64,000 nucleotides of DNA from the IMG/VR virus record IMGVR_UViG_3300011270_000006. One strand, written 5' to 3'. Source of the DNA: a virus. The notes beneath the pieces were generated by a model that saw only the letters and a program-made list of their open reading frames with translations, was not told the DNA's origin and searched no databases. Of the stretch, positions 4,782 to 56,415 are shown piece by piece (positions within the stretch are counted from its first letter, which is position 1; the number at the start of each line of letters is the position of its first letter). Made by a program: the position numbers and the translations under genes.

Positions 4782-5147
4782 CTAAAATGGAATTGCCTCT
4801 AAATCTCCTAATCCATCGTCTAACACAGGATCTTGCAGCACAGTAACAGGTCCATCCTCCCAATCGTCTAACTCCCCCATAAGATGCGACATTTTTAGGC
4901 TGCGCCCAACCTTCGCGCGGCGTCGGCCTAGCTCCCGTTGATGGTCCGGTAGAGGACGCTCAAAACGGTAGAAAACTTCGTACGTCTCGCCATCCTTCAC
5001 CTGTGACGCCCATCGTCCCTGGTAGTCTATCGGTTTGACTGCCAAGATCTCCACTTTTGAATAGCCAGAACGCCACACGAGAAGATCCACTATCTGCTGT
5101 CGTGTCTCCTCGCTAACCATATTGGTCATAAGTTCCTCGCTTTCCAT
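4782..5147 (-). CDS. hypothetical protein
   Basis: ORF 121 aa. Confidence 0.4.
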   Translation of the reverse strand: MESEELMTNMVSEETRQQIVDLLVWRSGYSKVEILAVKPIDYQGRWASQVKDGETYEVFYRFERPLPDHQRELGRRRAKVGRSLKMSHLMGELDDWEDGPVTVLQDPVLDDGLGDLEAIPF

Positions 5148-5222
5148 ATATACAGGGATGTATCATAGAATACCATATTTCCTGTATAACATACTAGTGC
5201 AACTTCCTAATGAGATCGCTCA

Positions 5223-5507
5223 TTATGGCTTACTACCATGTTCAATGTAATGAGATCGTTCCAACCCTAACCCCTCATATCCCTCCCATATCGTATTTCC
5301 TGCTAATAAGCGTACCTGGAGTCTTTCAGACTCCTCTCGTACATAACCAAACAAGGTGCTATAGCCTTTGACGCCATGAATACAATGCACCATAACCTGA
5401 TGCTCAACGCCATTGGTCTGTACCGGCTGGTTTTCATCACACCTTAAACTGCCCTGATTACATCTGTGCATCGCGACACCTCCTGAAAGTTTACTATTCC
5501 AAATCAA
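5223..5507 (-). CDS. hypothetical protein
   Basis: ORF 94 aa directly downstream of the integrase (4-nt overlap). Confidence 0.35.
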   Translation of the reverse strand: MIWNSKLSGGVAMHRCNQGSLRCDENQPVQTNGVEHQVMVHCIHGVKGYSTLFGYVREESERLQVRLLAGNTIWEGYEGLGLERSHYIEHGSKP

Positions 5508-6418
5508 TCTAGATATACAAAGTCTACCGCGTTATTGTCAAGGTTCAATTTACGCTTCTGGTATCGCTCAGTGGTACGCGGATCATCATGTCCTGCTGCG
5601 TACTGAACCTGCATCAACGTAGCACCGCCCTCTAATGCTAATGTAATGAACGTGGCACGCAGTCCGTGAGGAGTAAGCGTGTACACGCCGTTCTTCTCAC
5701 CATACACCTTCACCGTCCTCTCAATGAGCTTATCGCTCACTCTGATTGTGGTCGGACGGTCCCATCGATCAAAGCCCACGAAGAGCGGATCGCCAGGTGG
5801 TGCAGTGGACCTCTGCGTATCTTCAATGTACTCCTGGATGGAGCGGAAGACATCGACAGGCACCTTTGCCTTACGTCGCTTATCTCCCTTGCCGTGCCGA
5901 ATGATAGCAACATGGTGTCCTTGATCCATCATCAAATCACCGATGTTGAGCGCGGCACACTCTGATCGACGTATGCCCGTTCTCAGTAAGAATGAGATCA
6001 GTGCATAATCACGTTTGCCTCGATGCCTTGACTGATCGATGGATGCTAGCAAGTCTTTTGCCTGCTGTTTCGTGAGCGCGGTGTGTGGCGTCTCATTGTT
6101 CGCTTTAGGTATTCCTCTCATGCCTTCAAATGGGTTGGAGGTCCGTATACCGGCGTTAACCTGCTCTCTAAAGATATTTTTAGCGACTGAGATCATGCGC
6201 TTTACTGTCGCACCTGCATGTTTTTCATTAAGCCATGACAGGTACATTATGGCATTGGAGCGCGTGAATTTTCCAGGCACAAGAGCTTGATCTAGCATCC
6301 ATTCCGCCAGTACACGCGCATCGTGCTCATATACTGGCTTTGAGCGAGGCATGAGTTGACCTGTAGCGTCGGCAATGGATGCTGACAGATCGCAAGAGAT
6401 AAGGTCTGTCATTGTCAC
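5504..6418 (-). CDS. int: tyrosine site-specific recombinase (phage integrase/XerCD family)
   Basis: C-terminal catalytic signature ...HGLRATFITLALEGGATLMQVQYAAGHDDPRTTERY (the R..H..R..Y tetrad) plus an N-terminal SAM-like domain. Confidence 0.85.
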   Translation of the reverse strand: MTMTDLISCDLSASIADATGQLMPRSKPVYEHDARVLAEWMLDQALVPGKFTRSNAIMYLSWLNEKHAGATVKRMISVAKNIFREQVNAGIRTSNPFEGMRGIPKANNETPHTALTKQQAKDLLASIDQSRHRGKRDYALISFLLRTGIRRSECAALNIGDLMMDQGHHVAIIRHGKGDKRRKAKVPVDVFRSIQEYIEDTQRSTAPPGDPLFVGFDRWDRPTTIRVSDKLIERTVKVYGEKNGVYTLTPHGLRATFITLALEGGATLMQVQYAAGHDDPRTTERYQKRKLNLDNNAVDFVYLD

Positions 6419-7955: not shown

Positions 7956-8225
7956 TCATACCGATAGCCAGCAATCCCCTTGTGGATTAACGCCGTACAG
8001 TGCATTCAATTCGTCTAAGCGCTCCACCGGCAAGTCTGTTTCCCATACATCTCCTTGCCAATCGAGACGCCATATGTGAAGCCAGGAACGCCCTACACCG
8101 CTGTAGCGTTCCTGTACGATGATCGTTCCGCCACTCTCACTGATGGCGCTGGCTTTGTTGCCAGTACTGTGAGCTATCGCCCTAGCCATGTTCATACTAC
8201 TCTCCTTCTGGCAACGAGAAATCAA
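7956..8225 (-). CDS. hypothetical protein
   Basis: ORF 89 aa. Confidence 0.35.
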   Translation of the reverse strand: MISRCQKESSMNMARAIAHSTGNKASAISESGGTIIVQERYSGVGRSWLHIWRLDWQGDVWETDLPVERLDELNALYGVNPQGDCWLSV

Positions 8226-8619
8226 GTTGCCCTTTGTCGCGCATATCGGCGATCATCTCAGGAGAGAGCACTTCAACCGTACCGTCCACTGACTGAATAA
8301 CCACGCCTATAGCACGGATCTGGATACAGTGTGCTTTCCCAGTAATCAGGCGTTTGCGCACTGTCGTCTCTAGGTGTCCGCGCAGGTCGCCCTCAGTCAT
8401 GATGAAGTCTCGTTGCATAGTTGCCGTGTGATGCGGTATTGACGCTGCTACAGCTAGACCAATCCGTCGATCAATCTCTTTGTTGCGCTCGTCCAGATCG
8501 CCCCATGATAGAAGATGATCATCGGGGACATCTTTACCACCTTGCTCAATCTCCTCTAATTTGCAGGCGATCCACGCATCACGAACTGCCTTGCCTAGTA
8601 TCTCACCTACTGATTCCAT
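8197..8619 (-). CDS. hypothetical protein
   Basis: ORF; start moved to the ATG at 8619 (MESVGEILG) with RBS GGAGAAGG; this removes the overlap with the upstream gene. Confidence 0.45.
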   Translation of the reverse strand: MESVGEILGKAVRDAWIACKLEEIEQGGKDVPDDHLLSWGDLDERNKEIDRRIGLAVAASIPHHTATMQRDFIMTEGDLRGHLETTVRKRLITGKAHCIQIRAIGVVIQSVDGTVEVLSPEMIADMRDKGQLDFSLPEGE

Positions 8620-8620
8620 A

Positions 8621-9025
8621 TCATTCCTTCTCCTGCTCAATGTCTGGCAATCGTTCCCGTAGCATCTCGACAATTACCCGTCGATGACACTGCTCATATT
8701 CTTTGCAGGCACAGAGCAACACCATCGAGTAGCCTTGCAGCAATCCGTTGACCAGGCGTGCTAGACCTGGCTCAGCGTTGGCAAGCTGGATCACGCCGCC
8801 ATTCTTATAGTTGATGTTACCCAGTGATCGACCGAGCCAAAGATAGCGTTTACCGTACCTCGCTTGCAATGCCGATTGTTGCCACTCAGGACGGCGCGAG
8901 CGCGGACTATAGCGCGTATCGATGAGATACACATACTCATCTTGCAAGAGCGCATCCAGGCGCGTAGAGGCACCTGGAGCGCTATAGCCAAATGGGATTA
9001 ATCTACCGAGCATGAGACGACTCAT
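8621..9025 (-). CDS. DUF488-family protein
   Basis: LIPFGYSA...YLIDTRYSPRSRRPEW...RYLWLGRSLGN resembles the DUF488 (YeaO-like) family; start uncertain, range 9013-9130. Confidence 0.5.
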   Translation of the reverse strand: MSRLMLGRLIPFGYSAPGASTRLDALLQDEYVYLIDTRYSPRSRRPEWQQSALQARYGKRYLWLGRSLGNINYKNGGVIQLANAEPGLARLVNGLLQGYSMVLLCACKEYEQCHRRVIVEMLRERLPDIEQEKE

Positions 9026-9212
9026 TTCTATGGAGCATCGCAACCAACTGCTGTTCGCTCCTCTCATCCGTAACGATTGATGCGCAATCGCCACATGCCG
9101 GTATGTTGCCGATAGTGGCAGAGTCGCCAAAGAAGTCTCGCCCGATAGGTTGCCACATGCTCACGTCATCCAAAAACATTGGGCAAAATGGACACATTTC
9201 CTTGCCTTCCAT
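9003..9212 (-). CDS. small zinc-ribbon protein
   Basis: Start at 9212 has a strong RBS AGGAGGA; CPFCP...CGDC motif. Confidence 0.4.
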   Translation of the reverse strand: MEGKEMCPFCPMFLDDVSMWQPIGRDFFGDSATIGNIPACGDCASIVTDERSEQQLVAMLHRNESSHAR

Positions 9213-9264
9213 GTATCCTCCTGGCTGGCTTTGTGTGAGGTAGCCAGCCAACCTCGCTGAATAA

Positions 9265-10173
9265 CTAAGCCGCGCCCTTTGCGGCGGCGATAGCATAATC
9301 GACACGAATCGCCTCGTCATTCGTGATATCGGCAATCTCATCAGCGGTCACCTGACGCTCAACTACCTCAGTAATGTAAACCGCCATGCCGACACGATCA
9401 GCAAACAGTCCCTTCTCCTTGCCCTGCGAAAAGAGAACATTGAGTTGATCGCGTGATGCTTTGCGCACTGGCATCGGAGCACCATCAAGCCATGCTTTGA
9501 GCGTATCAGCCAAACGTCCATCAGGCTTCTCGATGACTTGATTGGCAAGCGCACTGCAACGGCTTTTCTGGACAATGAGAGTGTTGCTGTAATCCATCTC
9601 GAAGAAACAATCAAACTCATACTCAACGTCATTGCGTTGTACTGGAGCCATGCCAACCTTGCGAGGAATATTTCTACCGGTGCGTTCATCACGCTCAAGA
9701 GAATACTCCTGCTTAGAACGCATCGTACAGATGACGTGGAGATGAGCACGTGTTATTGCGTCTATGAGGCGATTCTGAATGGGAGTTGCCTCGCTCCATG
9801 CAGTGAAGGTGTTTGCAGATTTTGAGCGCTTGGCGACGCTCTCAACGATTTCTAATAAGCCTCCTGTACCGCTCCACGCGTGACTGAGCGAATCGATCAC
9901 CAGCACGCCGAAGCCAGCACGCTCAGCCTCGTGGATGATGTCAATAAAATTGTTAGGATGGAAATTATCGAGTTCGATCACGCTGAAATTGAAGAGATCC
10001 GCATATTTTGAGGCACTACCGCGCTCAGTGTCGAGGACGGCCACACCACCGTCACCGGCAAGAGCACTGGCAAGTAGCAGTGAAGTGTAGGTCTTCCCCG
10101 ATCCCGATGGGCCTGCAATAGCGATACGTGCCTTGCTCTCGTGCTTTACTGCTGGTTTGAATGAAAACGCCAT
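9265..10173 (-). CDS. Sak4-like RecA-fold ATPase (AAA_24 family), phage recombination protein
   Basis: Walker A IAIAGPSGSGKTYTS, Walker B VLVIDSLS; size and layout are typical of the phage Sak4/AAA_24 family. Confidence 0.75.
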   Translation of the reverse strand: MAFSFKPAVKHESKARIAIAGPSGSGKTYTSLLLASALAGDGGVAVLDTERGSASKYADLFNFSVIELDNFHPNNFIDIIHEAERAGFGVLVIDSLSHAWSGTGGLLEIVESVAKRSKSANTFTAWSEATPIQNRLIDAITRAHLHVICTMRSKQEYSLERDERTGRNIPRKVGMAPVQRNDVEYEFDCFFEMDYSNTLIVQKSRCSALANQVIEKPDGRLADTLKAWLDGAPMPVRKASRDQLNVLFSQGKEKGLFADRVGMAVYITEVVERQVTADEIADITNDEAIRVDYAIAAAKGAA

Positions 10174-17374: not shown

Positions 17375-18289
17375 ATGGGAGATTATTTCGAGGAGCATAC
17401 GGTGGGCTGCCTTGCAACCATCATGGTTGTTATTGTTGTGGCTATCCTCGTCGGGGGCTTTGCCTCCAGTTACAAGCGCATTGATCCAGGCAATGCGGGA
17501 ATCCTCGTCAATTATGCCGCTGGCAGTAGTGCAGGCAAACCGGAAATCCAGCCGCTTGCAACGGGACAATACGTGTTCATTCCGCCATTTTCGGGCAGCA
17601 CGTTGATCGAGTACCCGATTGCACAACAACAACTGGTGCTCTCCTCCAATAGCGCAGAAGGCGAATTATCAGGCGATTCTACCATTGCCTGTCAGATGAG
17701 CGGTGGCGGCGTACTCAACATCGGGCTGACGATCAATTGGCAAGTGAATAGCCAGCACCCTGAGACACTTTATCTGAAAAAGCCGAATGTACCACTCACC
17801 TCGTCACTCAACAATGACATCAACACCACCATCGTCTATGGCGCGGTGCGTAGTGACTTGCTGGATCTCTGCACACGCTACACCTGGCAAGATGTCCTGG
17901 GAGATGGCACCGGTCCGTCGAATAGCGACCAACTCAAAGCCAGGCTCTTCAAGGCATTACAAAGCGACCTTACGCCAGATGGCATCGTCGTCAATCAGGT
18001 GTTTCTGAACGAGCGTAGACCGGACGCGACGATACAGGCGGTGCTCAATGCACGTAATGAGGCACAGAAGAGTGCGTACTTGAAGCAGCAGGCACAATAT
18101 CAAGCTGATGCAGAGGTAGCAAAAGCCAATGGTGATGCGCAGTCCATAGCCATCATCAACGCGCAATTGGCGAAGTCGCCAGAGTACATCAACTACCTCA
18201 TCGCGCAGAAGTGGGACGGGAAGTTGCCGCAATATCTCAATACCAACGGCAACGCGAACCCGGTACTTGCCTCGCTCGGTGGAAAGTGA
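17375..18289 (+). CDS. SPFH/band-7 (prohibitin/HflK-C-like) domain membrane protein
   Basis: N-terminal TM then IDPGNAGILVNY...; C-terminal coiled coil rich in AQ/EAQ, typical of the SPFH family. Confidence 0.75.
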   Translation: MGDYFEEHTVGCLATIMVVIVVAILVGGFASSYKRIDPGNAGILVNYAAGSSAGKPEIQPLATGQYVFIPPFSGSTLIEYPIAQQQLVLSSNSAEGELSGDSTIACQMSGGGVLNIGLTINWQVNSQHPETLYLKKPNVPLTSSLNNDINTTIVYGAVRSDLLDLCTRYTWQDVLGDGTGPSNSDQLKARLFKALQSDLTPDGIVVNQVFLNERRPDATIQAVLNARNEAQKSAYLKQQAQYQADAEVAKANGDAQSIAIINAQLAKSPEYINYLIAQKWDGKLPQYLNTNGNANPVLASLGGK

Positions 18290-18361: not shown

Positions 18362-19093
18362 ATGAGTCATCTAGCCCAAGTTATTGCAGTTGAGAAGGAC
18401 ACCAAAGAGAAAGCCGCTCAACACCTCACCCACACCCGCAACATTTTCGGCAATCGCAATCTCTTTTCCGGCCTGGCACGCACCTACACCCCAAAAGAGG
18501 AGGATGGTGAGCAGTTGCCGCCTGAGTCCAACCGCGTCCAGCACAAAGTTGCCTCCGTCCTCAAAGATGCACAAGAAAGTCTCGTAGCCCTCTTCGATGT
18601 GGTGGCAACCAAAGACTATACCAACTGCGTCGCTAAAGCCAATATTGTTGTCGATGGCAAAGTCCTGCTCTCGGATGTGCCAGCTACCTACATCCTCTTT
18701 CTGGAGAAGCAGGTAGCAGAGTTACTGGCATTTGTAAAAACCATACCAGTTCTGGACGCTGCTGAAGACTGGCGATACGATACCACACAGGACTATTGGG
18801 CAACGCCACATGTTGAGACGATCCGCTCTCGCAAGGTGATGCGCAACCATACGCTCTCTGAGGCCACGCCACATCATCCAGCACAGGTACAGGTGTACGC
18901 TGAAGACATCCCGGCTGGACGCTGGCGAACCGTGAAGTACAGTGGTGCAATACAGGCTAATGATCACAATGCCATGATCGCCCGTATCGAGAAGTTGCAG
19001 AAGGCCATCAAGTTTGCACGTGAGGACGCCAATCGCCACGAGGCATTACAGCAGCACGTTGGCGAAACGGTGTTGACCTATGTCTTCGGATAA
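18362..19093 (+). CDS. hypothetical protein
   Basis: ORF 243 aa, co-operonic with the SPFH gene. Confidence 0.5.
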   Translation: MSHLAQVIAVEKDTKEKAAQHLTHTRNIFGNRNLFSGLARTYTPKEEDGEQLPPESNRVQHKVASVLKDAQESLVALFDVVATKDYTNCVAKANIVVDGKVLLSDVPATYILFLEKQVAELLAFVKTIPVLDAAEDWRYDTTQDYWATPHVETIRSRKVMRNHTLSEATPHHPAQVQVYAEDIPAGRWRTVKYSGAIQANDHNAMIARIEKLQKAIKFAREDANRHEALQQHVGETVLTYVFG

Positions 19094-19098
19094 CCATC

Positions 19099-19521
19099 AT
19101 GGCACACGCATATTATCATGCCAGAAGTAGTGCCAGGCGGTTTGGCGGCGTCTACACCGATTACATGGAACTTCATGAGTACATGGACCATACGAAAGCT
19201 CATATCGGCGATAACCGCCACCGCCTGTTACTGCATAACACTTGGGGTATCTATCTGGTAGAACGTATCTTTGGTGCTGTCTGGACACGTACATCCGATG
19301 GACAGGCAGTACCAACTCGCGCAATCCTGGAGCAACATGTTCTTGAGGATTTGCGTTGTATTCCATCATTAGAGCAGTGTTTTGCGAATGTGCCTATAGA
19401 GAACTGGCAATTTCGCAAAGCGCTGCCTTTATCGCAAGAGGATTGGAGTGAGGATGATGAAGCAGACAACACTAACCCGGCAACAACTAGTACAACTGAC
19501 GAAGGAGTATCAAGCACTTGA
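19099..19521 (+). CDS. hypothetical protein
   Basis: ORF 140 aa with low-complexity acidic tail. Confidence 0.45.
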   Translation: MAHAYYHARSSARRFGGVYTDYMELHEYMDHTKAHIGDNRHRLLLHNTWGIYLVERIFGAVWTRTSDGQAVPTRAILEQHVLEDLRCIPSLEQCFANVPIENWQFRKALPLSQEDWSEDDEADNTNPATTSTTDEGVSST

Positions 19522-19978
19522 AGACTGGATGATTATCCGTGATTTCTGCGCACAGGTGTATGGTGAAGGAAAAGCCGCCAAAGTTGAAACCGAAACCGAT
19601 GGAGAGTATAACGATGAGGGTGGCACTAATTACAGTGTGAGCCACATTACTGCCTATGACGCCAAAGGTGACGAACTCGAATTTGACTTGAAACTCCTAT
19701 TCTGGACACACTCTCACTTTTTGGATGATCAAGGCAAATTTGGCAACATCCCAGGTGAAACTAGCGAAGATGGCGACGATCCGCAAGATGCGGCACTGGA
19801 GGCGTTGAAGGACTATAGCCCCTGGCGCGATGAGGACAAGGCACTTGCTGAGAAGCACGGATGGATTGAATGGGGGAACCTACCAGTCGATGAGCACAAT
19901 GGAGGTAATACCACCTACGATCTCACCACTCAGCCAGCAATTAGTTTCCCAGTCATCTATGCGGCAACCGCCGATTGA
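19454..19978 (+). CDS. hypothetical acidic protein
   Basis: ATG at 19454 with RBS GGAG; overlaps the previous gene by 68 nt in another frame. Confidence 0.45.
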   Translation: MMKQTTLTRQQLVQLTKEYQALEDWMIIRDFCAQVYGEGKAAKVETETDGEYNDEGGTNYSVSHITAYDAKGDELEFDLKLLFWTHSHFLDDQGKFGNIPGETSEDGDDPQDAALEALKDYSPWRDEDKALAEKHGWIEWGNLPVDEHNGGNTTYDLTTQPAISFPVIYAATAD

Positions 19979-20122
19979 CAAGGACGAGAACAACGTGTAA
20001 TATGCACGACGGAGTACAGATTAAGCCTGAATTTGAGACTGAGACAGAGTAGCAGATTCTTACTCCAGACTTAACTCTGCTGCCTTCCAGAAAGACGCAG
20101 CACAGGCGTTAACCTCGTAGTC

Positions 20123-20161
20123 GATGGTTCGAATCCATCTCTCCCGTCCAACATCGGGAGA
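20123..20161 (+). other. tRNA-like 3' module (T-arm, acceptor 3' strand, discriminator, CCA) followed 4 nt later by the complementary 5' acceptor strand
   Basis: GATGG-TTCGAAT-CCATC (perfect T-arm with canonical T-loop), TCTCCCG, T, CCA, acat, CGGGAGA; no complementary 5' strand exists upstream (no GGG anywhere in 20041-20110). Confidence 0.45.
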
Positions 20162-20364
20162 TACGCTCAGTGGCAGAGTGGACGAGCATCAACAACCGCC
20201 TACAACAACGTTGGAATGGAACAAGCAGCAATTGCTAGCATTAGCCGAATGGTAAAGGCACTAGTTTCAACAACTAGACCCGAATAGGGAGTACAGGTCC
20301 AATTCCTGTATGCAATAGCAAAAGACCGACTCGGATTGGGCATTTTCGAGTCGGTCGCTTTTAT
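20155..20364 (+). ncRNA. candidate structured RNA (~205 nt) starting with an acceptor-like 5' strand and D-arm-like GCTCAGTGGCAGAGT, ending in an intrinsic terminator
   Basis: Several local hairpins (CTAG..CTAG, TACAGG..CCTGTA) and a terminator at 20324-20364; no ORF. Confidence 0.3.
20324..20364 (+). terminator. intrinsic terminator
   Basis: GACCGACTCG-gattgggcatttt-CGAGTCGGTC, a 10-bp perfect stem, followed by GCTTTTAT. Confidence 0.6.
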
Positions 20365-20380
20365 ACACAATGCCAGCCAT

Positions 20381-20523
20381 GTCGCCGATAGTATAGAGGC
20401 TCAGTACGCCCGTATCCTTCTCGGATAGTGTGCATATGCCGAGACATCAACCCATCCTCGATAGCTACAAGGGTGAGCGATGCCAGATATGAGGAAACGC
20501 CGGTTCAAATCCAGCTTGGCGGC
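20381..20523 (+). ncRNA. tRNA-like element with about 70-nt insertion (possible degenerate or intron-containing tRNA)
   Basis: 5' TCGCCGA-TA-GTAT-AGAGGCTCA-GTAC (acceptor, U8 A9, D-arm with GG) and 3' GCCGG-TTCAAAT-CCAGC-TTGGCGG; acceptor pairs with two G-U wobbles. No canonical anticodon arm; the TATCC/GGATA hairpin has a 5-nt loop. Confidence 0.3.
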
Positions 20524-20564
20524 TCCAAACAGCAACAGAGGCAAGAAGGTATGCCAATGCTTGC

Positions 20565-21143
20565 TTATCCTGGGAGAACTTCAGCCTGATCCATCTCACT
20601 TGTGATGTACATAAAAGGCGAACTCACGATACAGGTATGCCGCTCTGCCGCACTTAAAGCGCAATATAAACTCTTTAGCGGTGCCAAACCTAAATAATTC
20701 GTTGTATGCAATGAACCTATTGCAACTTCGCCTCCCTTGCCTACAGAATCATAATCATCTGCGGTATTGCATATATTGAACTCCTTACCAATCGTAAAGA
20801 GTTCACCATCCAGCGCTAGCAGAATACTCCCATCTAACTCATCACTGGGATATTCATTTTTCTTAAAGCAAGCTTGCAGCGATGGGACAAACTCAGAAAC
20901 AAGATACCTCACTTTATCTTGACCAGTAGTATATTTGGGCGTTACATGCTCATAGCGCAAAAGCTGGAGCATTCTCACCGCTCCGTTTGCACCGAATAAC
21001 ATGCCATCCTTTGCCCAGACCTTCGGTTCGCGTCTTACCGTTTGACTGACGCCTGAATGGTACTGACTCGGAACACTCCCCACAAACGAATCGCCAGCAA
21101 AATAGGCAATCCCGTTTTCAACGAGCGCGACAATACACGTCAT
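20565..21143 (-). CDS. HslV/proteasome-beta-like Ntn-hydrolase
   Basis: Mature N-terminus would be Thr: M-TCIVALVENGIAYFAGDS (compare HslV TTIVSVRRNGHVVIAGDGQ); later GSILLALDG and VGKGGEVAIGS segments match the fold; no HslU partner nearby. Confidence 0.5.
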   Translation of the reverse strand: MTCIVALVENGIAYFAGDSFVGSVPSQYHSGVSQTVRREPKVWAKDGMLFGANGAVRMLQLLRYEHVTPKYTTGQDKVRYLVSEFVPSLQACFKKNEYPSDELDGSILLALDGELFTIGKEFNICNTADDYDSVGKGGEVAIGSLHTTNYLGLAPLKSLYCALSAAERHTCIVSSPFMYITSEMDQAEVLPG

Positions 21144-33719: not shown

Positions 33720-35066
33720 ATGAGCAACCACTTAGAGCCTATGTTACCTAGCTCTATCGAGGCAGAACAAGCTGTGCTCGGTAGCATTCTCATTGATCCT
33801 GACGCGCTCGTCCTGGTCAGTGACTTCTTGAATGCCGAGGACTTTTACCGTGATGCGCACCGCTCCATCTATGAGGTCATGCACTATCTACTTGAGCGAC
33901 AAGAACCTGCTGATATTATCTCCGTTTCCGATGAACTAGGACGCCGTAATGTCCATCTCGATTTGAAGCGTGACAACTTCTTTTACCTGCAATCGCTCGT
34001 CAATTGTATTCCCACCAGTGGGAATGCCGAGATGTATGCGCATATGATCGTCGAGAAAGCCATCCTGCGTCGTCTCCTGCATGCGGCTGGCACAATAGCC
34101 GCATCTGCACAAAATGACACGGCGGAAGAGGCGATCCTGCACGCAGAAGAAGCCATCTTTGCTATCTCACAACGTCAGCATACTGCTACCTACGCGCCAA
34201 TCGCTGATGTGGTATCCCGATGTATGAGCAAGATGGAGATGGTAAGTCAGAAGCGCGGATCAATCATTGGTGTACCAACTGGGTACGTCGATCTCGACAG
34301 AATGTTGGGAGGGCTACGTAGGAAAGCTCTCTATATCCTGGCTGCTCGCCCTGCACAGGGGAAAAGTGCTCTCGCGCTCAATATTGGTTATCATGCGGCA
34401 ACCAATGGCTATAAGGTCGCATTCTTCTCTTTGGAAATGGGTGATGAAGAATTAGCGTTTAGACTGATCTCGATGGAATCGGGTGTGGAAAGTCGCAGAT
34501 TGCAGGATGGATGGATCGAGGATGAGGACTGGCCGAAGGTTGAGGATGCCATGACGCGCATCTCTGAAAGTCAAATGGTGATTGACGAGACGGGCGGACT
34601 CTCCATCGCGATGCTACGTAGCCGAGTGCGACAGATACAAGCGAAGCAGGGGCTAGACTTCATCATTGTGGATTACCTGCAACTGCTTAATGCGAAGAAG
34701 GATGGTCGCCCTATTGAGAACCGTGTACAGGAGATTAGCGAGATTAGCCGCAATCTAAAGATGATTGCAAAAGAGTTGGACGTGCCTGTGCTTGCGCTTG
34801 CGCAGTTATCGCGTGCCGTTGAGTACCGAGCGTCGAAGATTCCGCAATTATCAGATCTACGGGAAAGTGGAAGTATCGAGGCCGATGCCGATTGTGTTAT
34901 TGGGCTGTATCGCGACATTGTTTACAACCCTGCAACCGAGAATCCAAACGCAGCAGATCTCATTATCTTAAAAAACCGGAGCGGCCCTACGGGTGAAATA
35001 CGATTACATTTCGTCCCAAGTAAAACGAAATTTTATAACATGATGGTAAGCCCTTCGGAGGAATAG
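33720..35066 (+). CDS. dnaB: replicative DNA helicase DnaB
   Basis: N-terminal DnaB domain (AEQAVLGSILIDPD), Walker A ARPAQGKSALALN, and H2/H3/H4 motifs (IIVDYLQLL, LAQLSR, LIILKNR). Confidence 0.9.
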   Translation: MSNHLEPMLPSSIEAEQAVLGSILIDPDALVLVSDFLNAEDFYRDAHRSIYEVMHYLLERQEPADIISVSDELGRRNVHLDLKRDNFFYLQSLVNCIPTSGNAEMYAHMIVEKAILRRLLHAAGTIAASAQNDTAEEAILHAEEAIFAISQRQHTATYAPIADVVSRCMSKMEMVSQKRGSIIGVPTGYVDLDRMLGGLRRKALYILAARPAQGKSALALNIGYHAATNGYKVAFFSLEMGDEELAFRLISMESGVESRRLQDGWIEDEDWPKVEDAMTRISESQMVIDETGGLSIAMLRSRVRQIQAKQGLDFIIVDYLQLLNAKKDGRPIENRVQEISEISRNLKMIAKELDVPVLALAQLSRAVEYRASKIPQLSDLRESGSIEADADCVIGLYRDIVYNPATENPNAADLIILKNRSGPTGEIRLHFVPSKTKFYNMMVSPSEE

Positions 35067-43742: not shown

Positions 43743-44723
43743 ATGGCGCATATTTACGTAGTCACCAATCAGAAGGGTGGCGTGAAGAAGACTACCAATA
43801 CTATTCAACTCGGCTATCAGTTCGCCAATCGAGGGTACAAGACGTTGCTGGTGAGTTTAGATCCACAATGCAACATCGACTACACCTTGCTTGGATACGT
43901 CGAGGATGAAGAGGAATTGAGTGATGACGACCTTGCCGCATTTCAGCAGGAGTTTGCGCAATTCGAGGATGAGTATGAGTTAGATGAGGCGGAAATGCAT
44001 CTAGATGATGACGAGAGCAGTGAGGAGCCTGTCTATCCAGGGTTTGGTGTGCCGACGCTCTATGATGTTATTCTTGGCATAAATGGAGAACCTCGCAAAA
44101 AACGGCCTATTGACGAAGTGATTGTGGCAGTGCCGCAGCAGCCGAACCTTTATCTTGCAAAAGGATCAATCGCCCTCTCGGATATGGATATCAAATTAGC
44201 GGCCACGAATGGACGTGAGAAGATCTTGAAACGTGCCATTGACACAATTACTAACGACTATGACATCATCCTTATTGATACACCGCCGACACTAGGACTT
44301 GCCCCAGTGAACGCTTTTTTTGCAGCGGGAAATCTGGTGAAACGGACGAATGGCATCGTTATCGCCATTTCGCCTCAAGCCTATTCGGTTCTGGGCATTC
44401 GCACACTACTTGGTGCATTTCTCGAATTACGCACTGCACTGGAAATACCTCTGCCGATATTTGGGGTTATCTGTGCTGACGTGAAACGAACGAAGAATGC
44501 CAGAAAACGCATTGTACAAGTTCGCCAATTCTTTCGTAAGGCCGTCTTTCAAACGATTATCCCGCAAAATGAGAAAGTGGAGGAGGCTGCCGATGTGCAA
44601 TTACCTCTGATGCAATTTGCCCCAAATAGTCCTGGTGCCAAAGCGTATGCAAGCCTTGCTGACGAATTCTTGCGCCGTGCCGGTTTGCCACTACAGAAGC
44701 AGGAGGAAGTGACTCATGCCTGA
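43743..44723 (+). CDS. parA: ParA/Soj-family partition ATPase with acidic insertion
   Basis: Deviant Walker A NQKGGVKKTT; Walker A' and B motifs; C-terminal region typical of ParA. Confidence 0.85.
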   Translation: MAHIYVVTNQKGGVKKTTNTIQLGYQFANRGYKTLLVSLDPQCNIDYTLLGYVEDEEELSDDDLAAFQQEFAQFEDEYELDEAEMHLDDDESSEEPVYPGFGVPTLYDVILGINGEPRKKRPIDEVIVAVPQQPNLYLAKGSIALSDMDIKLAATNGREKILKRAIDTITNDYDIILIDTPPTLGLAPVNAFFAAGNLVKRTNGIVIAISPQAYSVLGIRTLLGAFLELRTALEIPLPIFGVICADVKRTKNARKRIVQVRQFFRKAVFQTIIPQNEKVEEAADVQLPLMQFAPNSPGAKAYASLADEFLRRAGLPLQKQEEVTHA

Positions 44724-54603: not shown

Positions 54604-55097
54604 CTCGATTGTTCATCGAGAGCATTGCTTATATCCTCAAGCATAGAACAGATGTACTCTTGCTGGTCAATCTGTCTTCTATCCTCAAATTTAAGAAAGC
54701 TCAGGAATTCCTCTTTTGTCACTGATTTTCCATCAATGCGAATGCCTCCATCGTCAGGACAGGTGTGTTCAAATTGAAGAAGAGCGTAGCCAAGATACTT
54801 GATCTTTGTTGGTCGCTTGGCATTTTCGCGCCTCAAGGAGAAATCTGGATGTGTAAAGGCAAAACGCAGTGCCTGGTCAACAACGGACTGCGTATCTCTT
54901 TGTGCATAGGATGGTACTGCGTTATATGTTTTGATTTCTAAGAATCTGAGGTACCCATAACGGTATTGATGCCAGACAAATCGTTGAGTTCCATCAATAT
55001 CTTCGCCGTCGTAACCGTAGATTGAGGGTATTTCTGGATGGCTCCGAAGCCATTTGCTAAACGGTGTGTCCTTCTCATCTCGACGTGACCTTGTCAT
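54579..55097 (-). CDS. hypothetical protein
   Basis: ORF 172 aa, overlaps neighbours by about 20 nt. Confidence 0.45.
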   Translation of the reverse strand: MTRSRRDEKDTPFSKWLRSHPEIPSIYGYDGEDIDGTQRFVWHQYRYGYLRFLEIKTYNAVPSYAQRDTQSVVDQALRFAFTHPDFSLRRENAKRPTKIKYLGYALLQFEHTCPDDGGIRIDGKSVTKEEFLSFLKFEDRRQIDQQEYICSMLEDISNALDEQSRWEERERW

Positions 55098-56415
55098 GCT
55101 GCACTTCCCCTACCCCACTTAATCCCTTCATTCCACCCAATGCAGATGCGTGCCGATCCTGATCGACTTCTATTCCAATAGAGTGCCGATGAAGCTTGTG
55201 TGCAGCACGCAAGATTGTTCCCGATCCACACATGGGATCGACAATAAGTTGACCAGGCTTCGTCAACTTCTCAATGAAATAGGCAGCTTCGCCTTCACCC
55301 TGTGACCATTCGTGTACAGCTTTATCACCCTTGTCACCGCGATAGAGATCCATCAACCAATCATGCGCAAGAGGCTCGCCTTTACTGAACATGACAATCG
55401 GCTTCCAGTCATTCCATAAGGTATGCTTCCATATCTGAATGTGTCCGCCAGTGTGCTGCACACCCAGAAGCCAGCAATACTCTAAATGCTGTGTAAGAGC
55501 GTCGAGTACCTTTGGAAGAAAGAGTTGGCCGCTATAGGCGAGAAGGATGCCCCCAGGCGTGAGCACTCGCTGCGCAAAAGAGGAGAGATGCGTCCAGAGC
55601 AGGAGTTGTTCCTCTTGGTAAGGAGGATCGGTAAAAATAAGCGATACGGAATTATCCTGAATGCACGTACCGATTTCCATGAAGTCCCCAGGAGGAAGCA
55701 GTTGAATGCTATTTGGCAGGATAATGGTCTTTGCCTGTTCCGTGATTTGTTCTTTTTTAACCTTCGTCTTCTCTTCTTTTATCGCATCCTTGATGGGTTT
55801 ACTTACACGTCTACCAGTTTGCTCTTTTTTCTTAGTCGCCTGCTCAACAATGGCAGATTGACTTTCTTTTGGTAGATTGGCTATGGCCTTTGCATCTGGG
55901 AGCGTAATCGTTCCATTCGCTATATGCTCTTCTAATTCAGGTGCATGCTTCATAATATCTTTGGCGTGCTGTACATACTTCTCGTTGGTCCCAAAGTCTT
56001 TAGCGGCTAAACCGACCGATGCGCCAGATATCAAGATGGAATTTTTTCCATCTTGATATTCTTCGCTTTTATGGTCGCCTCCATGCCTTTTGGCCGATTC
56101 AGCTTCATAGAGAGGTAAACTACGTACCGCAATCATCGCTCTTTGACTACTATCTAAGTGCCGACGCCTAATATTCATGCTTACCGCAAAGGAGATAAGT
56201 GAGCCTTTGCAGTCCCACTCCTGATAGCGTGGCTCGACATTCGCCTCTAGACACGCACGATACCGATTACGTCCATCAATAATCTTGTCCTGGTACGTCC
56301 ATATCGGCTGCTGTAGCCCATGTTCACGGATATCTGTAACCAATTCGTCAAACGCTTGGCCTTCGATGAGGGGAAAGAGATTTGCAACTTCGTGGAATTC
56401 CACTACCACCTCCAC
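55075..56415 (-). CDS. ParB-like nuclease domain fused to DNA N6/N4 methyltransferase
   Basis: N-terminal ParB/Srx motif (GRNRYRAC); C-terminal motif IV IFTDPPYQ and motif I VDPMCGSGT (beta-class amino-methyltransferase order). Confidence 0.8.
   Translation of the reverse strand: MEVVVEFHEVANLFPLIEGQAFDELVTDIREHGLQQPIWTYQDKIIDGRNRYRACLEANVEPRYQEWDCKGSLISFAVSMNIRRRHLDSSQRAMIAVRSLPLYEAESAKRHGGDHKSEEYQDGKNSILISGASVGLAAKDFGTNEKYVQHAKDIMKHAPELEEHIANGTITLPDAKAIANLPKESQSAIVEQATKKKEQTGRRVSKPIKDAIKEEKTKVKKEQITEQAKTIILPNSIQLLPPGDFMEIGTCIQDNSVSLIFTDPPYQEEQLLLWTHLSSFAQRVLTPGGILLAYSGQLFLPKVLDALTQHLEYCWLLGVQHTGGHIQIWKHTLWNDWKPIVMFSKGEPLAHDWLMDLYRGDKGDKAVHEWSQGEGEAAYFIEKLTKPGQLIVDPMCGSGTILRAAHKLHRHSIGIEVDQDRHASALGGMKGLSGVGEVQHDKVTSR

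What the first reader, a model, noticed from the sequence alone, without database searches (positions are those of the whole stretch)
20041..20530. Circularly permuted tRNA-like RNA locus: T-arm, acceptor and CCA come before their own 5' acceptor strand
At 20123-20150 there is a perfect tRNA 3' module: T-stem GATGG/CCATC with the canonical T-loop TTCGAAT, acceptor 3' strand TCTCCCG, discriminator T and an encoded CCA. Its complementary 5' acceptor strand CGGGAGA is not upstream; there is no GGG anywhere in the preceding 70 nt. It lies 4 nt downstream of the CCA, and is followed by a D-arm-like GCTCAGTGGCAGAGT and ~200 nt of structured RNA ending in a strong intrinsic terminator (20324-20364). 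The size and order (about 80-nt acceptor piece, short spacer, about 205-nt second piece) mimic two-piece permuted tmRNA genes, but the acceptor lacks the G3-U70 alanine identity pair and no ALAA-type tag frame is present. About 20 nt further on (20381-20523) is a second tRNA-like element with a good acceptor, U8 A9 and D-arm and a T-arm TTCAAAT, but it carries a ~70-nt insertion and has no canonical anticodon loop. This could be a new permuted tRNA-like or tmRNA-like regulatory RNA, a phage tRNA mimic, or an attachment-site relic.
Basis: seen in the sequence. Interest (0 to 1): 0.75.

Follow-up and report, generated by a model that had tools for sequence, protein, structure and literature searches.

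The report
Phage tRNA-mimic RNA of YrlA type
The "back-to-front tRNA" is real and conserved, but it has the known design of bacterial and phage Y-RNA-like tRNA mimics (YrlA); what is new is that it travels with an uncharacterised protein (DUF7873) rather than with the usual Ro60 partner.

Summary
At 20123-20179 a T-arm, a 7-bp acceptor helix closed by the loop UCCAACAU, and a D-arm lie in permuted order. They sit on a long stem made by the 5' and 3' flanks (20079-20229). Eight homologous loci keep this fold with strong covariation. The acceptor is paired in all eight, and 6 of its 7 pairs show compensatory changes.

This is the published architecture of YrlA, the tRNA-like bacterial and phage Y RNA. 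Rfam's YrlA model is the best non-tRNA match here and in relatives, though below threshold, as are bona fide phage YrlAs.

It is not a tmRNA, an att relic or a splice-matured permuted tRNA.

The window has no Ro60 gene. The RNA instead lies just downstream of a DUF7873 gene in all 16 distinct loci examined, from phages of several host phyla. Only one of these loci also has Ro60.

The 7-bp acceptor, U at -1 and the encoded NCCA (9 of 21 modules) suggest RNase P opens the loop, as shown for Mycobacterium smegmatis YrlA.

The second element (20381-20527) stays unresolved.

Verdict: a new variant of a known kind, of moderate interest.

The parts
19975..20003 (+). Sigma-70-type promoter, TTGACA-17 nt-TAATAT. 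The predicted transcription start is near 20010.
   Evidence: 10 of 12 matches. The -10 and -35 regions align with relatives. The -35 box overlaps the stop codon of the upstream ORF.
20011..20066 (+). Conserved 5' leader hairpin (GGAGTA...TACTCC, with an inner GAGACT/AGATTC helix).
   Evidence: MFE fold. In the alignment of 8 homologs, 12 pairs are predicted and 2 carry compensatory changes. The sequence CAGATTCTTACTCCAGAC is nearly invariant.
20079..20113 (+). 5' strand of the long basal stem: GCTGC 20079-83, TTCCA 20085-89, purine loop GAAA, GACG 20094-97, AGGCG 20104-08. It contains GACGCAG, a near-match to the YrlA motif GNCGAAN0-1G.
   Evidence: helices 1-4 are 65-88% paired, with compensatory changes.
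20114..20122 (+). 3' strand of the anticodon-stem-like helix (CTCGT 20114-18) plus the variable-loop equivalent AGTC, which ends in the invariant C48.
   Evidence: helix 5 is 92.5% paired, with 4 of 5 pairs compensatory. C48 is invariant.
20123..20139 (+). T-arm: GATGG / TTCGAAT / CCATC.
   Evidence: 97.5% paired. T54, T55, C56, A58 and the G53-C61 pair are invariant.
20140..20161 (+). Acceptor helix closed into a hairpin: TCTCCCG, loop UCCAACAU (discriminator U, CCA, 4-nt spacer with U at -1), CGGGAGA. The predicted RNase P cut lies between 20154 and 20155.
   Evidence: 7 of 7 pairs in all 8 homologs, 6 pairs compensatory. The RNase P cleavage and CCA precedent is M. smegmatis YrlA (PMC4201824). 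Cleavage here is inferred.
20162..20181 (+). U8 A9 (+C), D-arm GCTC / AGTGGCA / GAGT, then GG.
   Evidence: 96.9% paired. U8, A14, G15, G18, G19 and A21 are invariant.
20182..20229 (+). 5' strand of the anticodon-stem-like helix (ACGAG 20182-86) and the 3' strand of the basal stem (CGCCT 20197-201, CGTT 20209-12, GGAA loop, TGGAA 20217-21, GCAGC 20225-29).
20235..20317 (+). tRNA-Leu(CAA)-like unit, co-transcribed directly after the mimic. It has acceptor mismatches at 1-72 and 3-70 and the T-loop TCCAATT. RNase P cleavage at its 5' end would set the 3' end of the mimic.
   Evidence: Called by ARAGORN and Rfam (43.3 bits). The same position holds a tRNA-like unit in all 8 relatives, and 7 of the 8 have unpaired outer acceptor positions.
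20324..20364 (+). Intrinsic terminator: a 12-bp stem, a 9-nt loop, then GCTTTTAT. It is preceded by the conserved sequence AGCAAAAGAC.
   Evidence: -20.8 kcal/mol. The hairpin and the AGCAAAAAGAC motif are conserved in relatives.
20381..20527 (+). Second, unresolved tRNA-shaped element: an 8-bp acceptor, a D-arm, a T-arm with one mismatch, a UCCA end, and about 82 nt in place of the anticodon arm.
   Evidence: Rfam tRNA gives 20.3 bits against a threshold of 29. ARAGORN calls tRNA-Arg(CCT) with a 48-nt intron only with -i. No sequence relative was found. The fold z-score is -0.03.
18362..19093 (+). DUF7873 gene, the conserved neighbour and candidate protein partner of the RNA.
   Evidence: Pfam E = 2.6e-96. 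A closed-acceptor tRNA-like module lies beside the gene, usually just downstream, in all 16 distinct DUF7873 loci examined.
19099..19978 (+). DUF6915 gene (19099-19521) and a conserved 176-aa ORF (19448-19978), lying between DUF7873 and the RNA.
   Evidence: Pfam. Both are shared with relative L121 at 73% and 59% amino-acid identity, within a collinear 1.7-kb cassette.

Best explanation
The locus encodes a YrlA-type tRNA mimic carried on a phage-like mobile element.

Transcript. One transcript of about 355 nt starts near 20010 and ends at the terminator around 20364. It contains a conserved leader hairpin, the mimic (20079-20229) and a tRNA-Leu(CAA)-like unit.

Fold. The mimic takes the L-shape of a tRNA: T-arm, D-arm, all elbow and core tertiary nucleotides, and a 7-bp acceptor helix. 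The acceptor end is closed by a loop. The 'anticodon stem' is formed by the 5' and 3' parts of the RNA and continues into a long, internally looped stem of about 20 bp that acts as a protein-binding handle.

What is shown: the fold, its conservation, and its linkage to DUF7873.

What is inferred:
(i) RNase P releases the downstream tRNA-like unit and so sets the 3' end of the mimic.
(ii) RNase P also cuts before C20155, because there is a 12-bp acceptor/T stack, U at -1 and a 3' UCCA. Trimming of ACAU then leaves a two-piece, CCA-ended tRNA-like RNA, as shown for M. smegmatis YrlA.
(iii) The RNA is an adaptor or decoy. It presents a tRNA shape to tRNA-recognising proteins while its stem and leader bind a partner.
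(iv) In this element the partner is more likely the adjacent DUF7873 protein than Ro60, which the window lacks.
For: Sequence and fold.

Covariation in 8 homologs: 88.6% of cells paired against 34-44% for slid controls; 24 of 40 pairs compensatory; acceptor helix 100% paired.

tRNA tertiary nucleotides are invariant: U8, A14, G15:C48, G18, G19, A21, G53:C61, T54, T55, C56, A58.

Rfam YrlA (RF02553) is the best non-tRNA family, aligned over the full model. Scores are 18.9 bits in the window, and 32.4, 28.6 and 23.8 bits in relatives L121, L124 and L123.

Bona fide phage YrlAs next to Ro genes also fall below Rfam's threshold (36.1 and 52.1 bits). My model R1 finds them (33.9 bits, E 6.6e-7, and 18.8 bits).

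The closest relative, L121, has a TROVE + vWA_Ro60 gene directly after the RNA-tRNA pair.

Ro60 genes lie in 5 of the viral loci that carry closed-acceptor modules.

The literature describes the same architecture and shows RNase P cleavage with CCA addition for a YrlA with a 7-bp acceptor (PMC4201824; 10.1101/312249).

DUF7873 linkage holds in 16 of 16 loci. These include Gordonia, Arthrobacter, Klebsiella and Pseudanabaena phages and two Ktedonobacteria chromosomes. The first module lies 100-150 nt after the DUF7873 stop codon in most.

NCCA follows the acceptor in 9 of 21 modules, where about 1.6% is expected by chance.
Against: - All Rfam YrlA scores are far below the gathering score of 69, and the window's E-value alone (0.35) means nothing.
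- The window has no Ro60 gene.
- In L121 Ro60 is on the opposite strand and has its own array of short Y-like RNAs.
- The Ro-binding motif GNCGAAN0-1G is present only as a near-match (GACGCAG).
- The CCA is not conserved across relatives.
- The DUF7873 fold matched nothing informative, so no biochemical role can be assigned.
- No expression, processing or binding data exist. The partner and the decoy/adaptor function are inference.
Confidence: 0.75

Rival explanations
1. It is a classic Ro60-dependent Y RNA. The RNA binds a Ro60/Rsr protein supplied by the host, or encoded elsewhere on the element, and tethers or gates it as in the Deinococcus and Salmonella Ro60-Y RNA complexes. DUF7873 is only a neighbour.
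For: The architecture is YrlA-like and Rfam's best family is YrlA. The closest relative, L121, carries Ro60 beside the same cassette. Closed-acceptor modules co-occur with Ro60 in viral loci L069, L085, L102, L105 and L106.
Against: There is no Ro60 in 64 kb of window. Only 1 of 16 DUF7873-linked loci has Ro60 nearby. The host genera of phages with DUF7873 and of phages with Ro60 barely overlap. The GNCGAA motif is not intact. L121 has separate Y-like RNAs on the rsr strand.
Confidence: 0.25
2. It is a true circularly permuted tRNA gene. The transcript's ends are cut and ligated to close an anticodon loop, the acceptor loop is opened by RNase P and 3' trimming, and a functional aminoacylatable tRNA results, as in Cyanidioschyzon merolae or Thermofilum pendens.
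For: The order is 3' half, N-CCA, short spacer, 5' half. There is a 7-bp acceptor and all tRNA core nucleotides. The YrlA authors themselves raise this possibility (10.1101/312249).
Against: There is no bulge-helix-bulge motif. The stem beyond the anticodon-like helix has internal loops of 5/10, 6/7 and 4/4 nt. The residues flanking that helix are not conserved and cannot give a conserved 7-nt anticodon loop. The long stem itself covaries and is sequence-conserved, as expected for a functional handle rather than a discarded intron. The CCA is absent in about half of the relatives. No splicing endonuclease is known in bacteria (established knowledge).
Confidence: 0.05
3. It is a permuted two-piece tmRNA gene or a tmRNA-like trans-translation RNA.
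For: The order, acceptor piece first, resembles permuted ssrA. ARAGORN at a lowered threshold (-ps80) calls a permuted tmRNA at 20054-20519.
Against: ARAGORN makes no call at its default threshold. Rfam gives no tmRNA-family hit over the locus, even at E <= 10. The low-threshold tag (AQYARILLG*) lies inside the tRNA-Leu unit. Pair 3-70 is G-C, not G-U. Relatives conserve no tag reading frame.
Confidence: 0.02
4. It is a chance hairpin, an attachment-site remnant, or the decayed junction of two tandem copies of one tRNA gene, with no function of its own.
For: Tandem tRNA genes with short spacers give the same local pattern, and many such junctions were hit by my pattern and by model R1. An integrase lies at 5504-6418.
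Against: There are compensatory changes in all eight helices, including long-range stems that pair the two flanks. The locus has a dedicated promoter and terminator. It keeps its position after DUF7873 across phyla. The integrase is 14 kb away.
Confidence: 0.02

Closest known systems
YrlA (Y RNA-like A; Rfam RF02553) of Salmonella, Mycobacterium smegmatis and mycobacteriophages
   Same: Both have a tRNA-like domain in the order T-arm, loop-closed acceptor stem, D-arm. Both have an anticodon-like stem made by the 5' and 3' parts, extended into a long stem. Both conserve the tRNA tertiary nucleotides. The 7-bp acceptor matches M. smegmatis YrlA, which is cut by RNase P and receives CCA. Both occur in phages close to tRNA genes.
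   Different: No Ro60 gene is nearby, and the constant neighbour is DUF7873. The GNCGAAN0-1G motif is only approximated (GRCGYA). This RNA adds a conserved 5' leader hairpin and a fused downstream tRNA-like unit. NCCA is often encoded in the acceptor loop. Scores fall well below Rfam's threshold.
Circularly permuted tRNA genes of Cyanidioschyzon merolae, some green algae and Thermofilum pendens
   Same: The 3' half precedes the 5' half. The acceptor is initially a closed loop. The anticodon stem is initially formed by the transcript's ends.
   Different: Those have a bulge-helix-bulge motif, are circularised by the splicing machinery and become real tRNAs with an anticodon loop. Here there is no such motif, no conserved anticodon loop can form, and the extended stem is itself conserved.
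Two-piece tmRNA from permuted ssrA genes (alphaproteobacteria, some cyanobacteria)
   Same: Gene order is permuted, with the CCA-bearing acceptor piece first. The predicted mature form has two pieces held together by base pairing.
   Different: There is no G3-U70, no tag reading frame, no pseudoknots, and no ARAGORN or Rfam tmRNA call at normal thresholds.
MALAT1/MEN-beta tRNA-like 3' modules (mascRNA)
   Same: It works alike in one respect: a downstream tRNA-like unit would be cleaved by RNase P, and that cut would create the 3' end of the upstream non-coding RNA.
   Different: Those are eukaryotic nuclear lncRNAs with no homology to this RNA. The parallel is mechanistic and inferred.

Membership tests
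YrlA / bacterial Y RNA-like (RF02553) | tRNA-like domain in the order T-arm, acceptor stem closed by a loop, D-arm | tested here: met
   Sequence, MFE fold and covariation in 8 homologs (T-arm 97.5%, acceptor 100%, D-arm 96.9% paired).
YrlA / bacterial Y RNA-like (RF02553) | Nucleotides for tRNA tertiary interactions (U8-A14, G15-C48 Levitt pair, G18/G19 with T-loop 55/56, T54-A58) | tested here: met
   All are invariant columns in alignment A4 of 8 homologs.
YrlA / bacterial Y RNA-like (RF02553) | Anticodon-like stem and a long stem formed by pairing the 5' and 3' parts of the RNA | tested here: met
   Helices 1-5 are 65-92% paired with compensatory changes. They also appear in the MFE fold.
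YrlA / bacterial Y RNA-like (RF02553) | GNCGAAN0-1G motif near the 5' end (the proposed Ro60 contact; PMC4201824) | tested here: inconclusive
   The window has GACGCAG at 20094-20100, with one mismatch at position 5. Relatives have GACGTAG, GGCGTAC, AACGTAG and GACGTAA; L121 has TGCGGAG. The consensus is GRCGYA: similar, at the right place, but not the motif.
YrlA / bacterial Y RNA-like (RF02553) | Encoded within about 4 kb of a Ro60/Rsr (TROVE) gene, on the same strand | tested here: not met
   Pfam finds no TROVE domain in any ORF of 400 aa or more, or in the neighbouring ORFs. tblastn with the Ro60 of L121 against the window gives a best E-value of 0.94. In relative L121 Ro60 is adjacent but convergent.
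YrlA / bacterial Y RNA-like (RF02553) | Reaches Rfam's gathering score (69 bits) | tested here: not met
   The window scores 18.9 bits and relatives 23.8-32.4 bits. Control: YrlAs next to Ro genes in phages Cali and Forza also fail, at 36.1 and 52.1 bits.
YrlA / bacterial Y RNA-like (RF02553) | Bound by Ro60 in vivo | not testable with these tools
   This needs immunoprecipitation. The host genome is unknown.
Circularly permuted tRNA gene (matures to a functional tRNA) | The 3' half lies upstream of the 5' half, joined at the acceptor by a short linker | tested here: met
   TCTCCCG-UCCA-ACAU-CGGGAGA.
Circularly permuted tRNA gene (matures to a functional tRNA) | Bulge-helix-bulge motif at the paired termini, for endonuclease cleavage and ligation | tested here: not met
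   The internal loops next to the anticodon-like helix are 5/10, then 6/7, then 4/4 nt. There are no 3-nt bulges flanking a 4-bp helix.
Circularly permuted tRNA gene (matures to a functional tRNA) | Joining yields a conserved 7-nt anticodon loop (U33, purine 37) | tested here: not met
   The flanking residues differ in length and sequence among relatives, for example TTAAC/CATCAACAAC against CTTC/ATGAGCAAT.
Permuted two-piece tmRNA | Detected by ARAGORN or the Rfam tmRNA models | tested here: not met
   There is no call at default thresholds. The only call, at -ps80, puts the tag inside the tRNA-Leu unit.
Permuted two-piece tmRNA | G3-U70 alanine identity pair and a tag reading frame | tested here: not met
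   Pair 3-70 is G-C. No reading frame is conserved across relatives.
Canonical tRNA gene | 5' acceptor strand, D-arm, anticodon arm, T-arm and 3' acceptor strand in that order, called by tRNA finders | tested here: not met
   Not met for 20123-20190. It is met only by the separate unit at 20235-20317, which has acceptor mismatches at 1-72 and 3-70.

The most novel reading that the evidence does not exclude
DUF7873 and the closed-acceptor tRNA mimic form a previously undescribed phage ribonucleoprotein that does not depend on Ro60. It would be widespread in phages of Actinobacteria, Cyanobacteria, Proteobacteria and Chloroflexota. RNase P would open the RNA into a two-piece, CCA-ended tRNA look-alike. 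That RNA could be charged, or could act as a decoy or adaptor in the contest between host and phage over tRNAs.
Probability: 0.35. Interest if true: 0.65.

Novelty: new variant of a known kind. Interest (0 to 1): 0.45.

Why it matters
Y RNAs are defined by their partnership with Ro60, and why bacterial Y RNAs mimic tRNA is still unknown.

This cassette shows the same tRNA-mimic design moving through phage genomes without Ro60. It is always beside one uncharacterised protein family, often inside phage tRNA clusters, and often carries an encoded CCA.

That gives three things:
- a concrete candidate for a second protein partner of YrlA-type RNAs
- a testable prediction: RNase P opening of the loop, and DUF7873 binding
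- a practical correction for annotation, because these modules are missed by tRNA finders and by Rfam's YrlA threshold

If DUF7873 is only a neighbour, this is simply another divergent phage YrlA.

Tried and rejected
**Searches that found nothing**
- blastn of 19900-20650 against the phage and plasmid collections: no match.
- A specific degenerate pattern of the tRNA-like core in viral, genome and metagenome contigs: no match.
- Neighbour ORFs 19448-19978 and 20565-21143: no relatives in viral contigs.

**Searches that were too loose**
- A pattern built from four homologs gave about 120 metagenome hits. Almost all were chance; only copies of L121 and L246 were real.
- The broad pattern GGTTCRAWTCC..GCTCAGTGG and model R1 also hit ordinary tandem-tRNA junctions. 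They cannot on their own separate mimics from tRNA arrays.

**DUF7873 function**
- There is no PDB sequence match.
- The AlphaFold model is confident (pLDDT 87.6).
- Foldseek against the PDB gives nothing below E = 0.03.
- The afdb50 library was unavailable.
- No paper mentions DUF7873.

**Second element (20381-20527)**
- It has no sequence similarity to the first RNA beyond the T-loop and none to L121.
- It cannot be aligned with the 'tRNA with insertion' elements of L123 and L254.

**Rejected readings**
- tmRNA, splice-matured permuted tRNA, att relic and chance hairpin are rejected. The reasons are given under the rival explanations.

**Unavailable source**
- The Annual Review on bacterial Ro60 and Y RNAs (PMC10870794) was not held.
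Full report
**1. The observation**

- T-arm GATGG/TTCGAAT/CCATC, 20123-20139
- TCTCCCG, 20140-20146
- U-CCA, 20147-20150
- spacer ACAU, 20151-20154
- CGGGAGA, 20155-20161
- UAC, then the D-arm GCTC/AGTGGCA/GAGT, 20165-20179

ARAGORN and Rfam at gathering thresholds call no tRNA or tmRNA there on either strand. They do call a tRNA-Leu(CAA) at 20235-20317 (43.3 bits).

A sigma-70-type promoter (TTGACA-17-TAATAT, 19975-20003) precedes the locus. A 12-bp terminator hairpin followed by GCTTTTAT (20324-20364; -20.8 kcal/mol) closes it.

**2. The fold**

The minimum-free-energy fold of 20010-20234 (z = -2.4) has two parts.
- A leader hairpin spans 20011-20066.
- A long interrupted stem is formed by 20079-20118 pairing with 20182-20229.

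The stem carries three hairpins in the order T-arm, closed acceptor helix, D-arm. The helix CTCGT/ACGAG sits where a tRNA's anticodon stem would be. It is made by the two flanks and has no anticodon loop.

**3. Relatives**

Direct DNA searches found nothing, so I went through the neighbouring genes.

The gene at 18362-19093 belongs to Pfam DUF7873 (E = 2.6e-96). Its closest homologs are 60-81% identical. They lie on metagenomic phage-like contigs L121/L122, L123, L124 and L254-L257.

In every one of these, a homologous RNA follows the DUF7873 gene. Each RNA is followed by a tRNA-like unit, a conserved AGCAAAAAGAC motif and a terminator.

The acceptor strands differ between loci but are always 7 of 7 complementary:
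- TCTCCCG/CGGGAGA
- CCCCGGC/GCCGGGG
- CCTCTGC/GCAGAGG
- TCGCGCA/TGCGCGA
- CGTCTCA/TGGGACG
- TCTCCCC/GGGGAGA
- TCCCGGC/GCCGGGA

I scored an eight-helix, 40-pair structure on the 8-sequence alignment A4.
- 88.6% of cells are paired, against 34-44% when partners are slid by 1-3 columns.
- 24 pairs carry changes on both sides, a count reached by 0 of 500 shuffles.
- The acceptor helix is 100% paired, with 6 of 7 pairs compensatory.

All nucleotides that build the tRNA elbow and core are invariant. These are U8, A14, G15 with C48, G18, G19, A21, G53-C61, T54, T55, C56 and A58.

**4. What it is**

In E-value mode, Rfam's best non-tRNA family over the locus is YrlA (RF02553), aligned across the whole model. 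The window scores 18.9 bits.
- The same family is the best non-tRNA hit at the same place in L121 (32.4 bits, E = 0.0023), L124 (28.6) and L123 (23.8).
- All are far below the gathering score of 69.
- Undisputed phage YrlAs also fall below it. The one beside the Ro gene of Mycobacterium phage Cali scores 36.1 bits, and the one in Gordonia phage Forza scores 52.1.
- My covariance model R1, built from A4, recognises both: 33.9 bits (E = 6.6e-7) and 18.8 bits.

The primary literature describes YrlA as follows (PMC4201824; bioRxiv 10.1101/312249).
- It has a Ro60-binding stem formed by the RNA's ends, plus a domain with T-arm, loop-closed acceptor stem and D-arm.
- M. smegmatis YrlA has a 7-bp acceptor stem. 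It is cleaved by RNase P and receives CCA in vivo.

**5. Where it departs from YrlA**

The window has no Ro60 gene. Pfam finds no TROVE domain in the large or neighbouring ORFs. tblastn with the Ro60 of L121 gives a best E-value of 0.94.

Only L121, the closest relative, carries Ro60 (TROVE + vWA_Ro60, 8014-9633). It starts just after the RNA-tRNA pair but on the opposite strand. L121 also has its own array of short Y-like units upstream of rsr, on the rsr strand.

The window and L121 share a collinear 1.7-kb cassette at about 70% nucleotide identity. It comprises DUF7873, DUF6915 and a 176-aa ORF, and runs up to the start of the RNA. They share nothing significant beyond it.

The YrlA motif GNCGAAN0-1G is only approximated here, as GACGCAG. 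The family consensus is GRCGYA.

**6. The DUF7873 link**

The constant partner is DUF7873. Closed-acceptor modules follow DUF7873 genes in distant genomes too:
- Gordonia phages Phendrix and Ronaldo, where the gene sits in or next to tRNA arrays
- Arthrobacter phage Mimi, Pseudanabaena phage Pam2 and Klebsiella jumbo phage KpLz-2_45
- viral and metagenome loci L117 and L246
- the chromosomes of Tengunoibacter tsumagoiensis and Ktedonobacter racemifer, where no TROVE gene lies within 6 kb

In total, 16 distinct loci hold 21 non-redundant modules. The first module usually lies 100-150 nt after the DUF7873 stop codon.

For Pam2 the two modules share one acceptor sequence. A tandem tRNA-Leu array is an alternative reading there, so I do not lean on that case.

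In the phage collection, DUF7873 occurs mainly in Vibrio, Gordonia, Rhizobium, Klebsiella and Serratia phages. Ro60 occurs mainly in Mycobacterium and Streptomyces phages. Most DUF7873-linked RNAs therefore work without a phage Ro60.

DUF7873 has no literature and no informative structural match, despite a confident model.

**7. Mechanism**

Shown:
- the fold and its conservation
- the promoter and terminator
- the tRNA-like unit fused downstream
- the gene linkage

Inferred:
- RNase P cleavage at C20235 would release the tRNA-like unit and create the 3' end of the mimic.
- RNase P would also cut between 20154 and 20155. The 7-bp acceptor stacked on the 5-bp T-stem is one determinant. U at -1 is another, seen in most of the DUF7873-linked relatives I tabulated by eye. 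The 3' NCCA is the third, present in 9 of 21 modules against about 1.6% expected by chance.
- Trimming of ACAU would then leave a two-piece, CCA-ended molecule, as in M. smegmatis YrlA.
- The conserved stem has a 4x4 purine loop (GAAA/GGAA) and the near-motif GRCGYA. Together with the conserved leader it is the likely protein handle.

I commit to an adaptor or decoy role for a tRNA-shaped RNA whose partner here is DUF7873. Confidence is moderate for the kind of RNA (0.75) and lower for the partner (about 0.35-0.5).

**8. Rivals**

*Splice-matured permuted tRNA.* This is unlikely. There is no bulge-helix-bulge motif and no conservable anticodon loop. The 'intron' stem is itself conserved.

*tmRNA.* This is rejected. 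There is no default ARAGORN call and no Rfam tmRNA hit over the locus. Pair 3-70 is G-C. The only low-threshold call places the tag inside the tRNA-Leu.

*Chance hairpin, att relic or decayed tandem tRNAs.* These are rejected by the covariation of the long-range stems.

**9. The second element (20381-20527)**

It has an 8-bp acceptor, a D-arm, a T-arm with one mismatch and a UCCA end. About 82 nt replace the anticodon arm.
- Rfam tRNA gives 20.3 bits, below the threshold of 29.
- ARAGORN calls it only with its intron option, using a poor anticodon stem.
- Its fold is no better than that of shuffled sequence.
- It has no sequence relatives.
- ARAGORN -i also reports 'tRNAs with ~50-nt insertions' in relatives L123 (4898-5021) and L254 (3416-3559), but the three do not align.

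It remains unresolved.

**10. Verdict**

It is a divergent phage-borne variant of the YrlA class. Its apparently unreported feature is strict linkage to DUF7873 rather than Ro60.

Noticed in passing
window 20235-20317; L123 6980-7052; L124 6968-7043; L254 4795-4866; L255 5979-6051; L256 5971-6045; L257 5974-6046: The 'tRNA' fused downstream of the mimic has 1-3 unpaired outer acceptor positions in 7 of 8 relatives; in the window these are C1xU72 and A3xA70. It is followed by an A-rich stretch and the conserved AGCAAAAAGAC rather than a discriminator and CCA. The window copy also has the T-loop TCCAATT (C at position 55). Anticodons differ between loci (Leu CAA, Lys CTT, Ile GAT, Val GAC, Tyr GTA). 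These may be tRNA-like domains of one composite RNA rather than working tRNAs.
   Followed up: partly
L121 9650-10260, minus strand: A promoter is followed by an array of about 4-5 short Y-RNA-like units. Each ends in ATCGCYTTTTG, and some carry T-arms. The array lies directly upstream of the Ro60 (TROVE) gene on the same strand. None is recognised by Rfam YrlA, and R1 hits one (9821-9965, 25 bits).
   Followed up: partly
L253 (Gordonia phage Phendrix MN096369.1) 4873-4928 and 5024-5080; L252 (Ronaldo) about 5005-5060 and 5154-5241; L261 (Arthrobacter phage Mimi) 3324-3381 and 3478-3557: Published phage genomes carry unannotated closed-acceptor tRNA-like modules in the gap right after their DUF7873 gene, inside or next to tRNA arrays. 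Several have ACCA or TCCA directly after the 3' acceptor strand.
   Followed up: partly
L022, L042, L060, L069, L072, L094, L102, L105, L111 (viral contigs): These carry a second subtype of closed-acceptor module. A complete anticodon-arm-like hairpin with a 7-nt loop (for example ATCATAA, CTCTTAA, CTGCCAA) precedes the T-arm, and the basal stem enters between the D-arm and the anticodon arm. L069, L102 and L105 also carry Ro60 homologs in the same locus.
   Followed up: no
L022, L037, L060, L104, upstream of the modules: The motif ACAGCAAA recurs in the 5' strand of the basal stem of AT-rich members. Its meaning is unknown.
   Followed up: no
L015 5852-6267: A GOLLD RNA (Rfam 207.5 bits) lies immediately upstream of a run of partial tRNA-like pieces and tRNAs.
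   Followed up: no
L123 4898-5021 and L254 3416-3559: These are tRNA-shaped elements with canonical acceptor, D-arm and T-arm but a 50-59-nt insertion in the anticodon loop. The L123 element scores 47.6 bits on Rfam tRNA. The L123 copy lies next to a GIY-YIG gene. They are the same general type as the window's second element but cannot be aligned with it.
   Followed up: partly
[not shown]
   Followed up: partly
window 1-64000: The window looks like a phage-plasmid or prophage non-structural region. It has an integrase (5504-6418), an SPFH protein (17375-18289), DnaB (33720-35066), several DNA methyltransferases, a ParA-like protein (43743-44723), a ParB-methylase fusion (55075-56415) and a Toprim/AAA primase-like protein (57546-59933). 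The named DUF7873 relatives point to Ktedonobacteria (Chloroflexota) or Actinobacteria as related hosts.
   Followed up: partly
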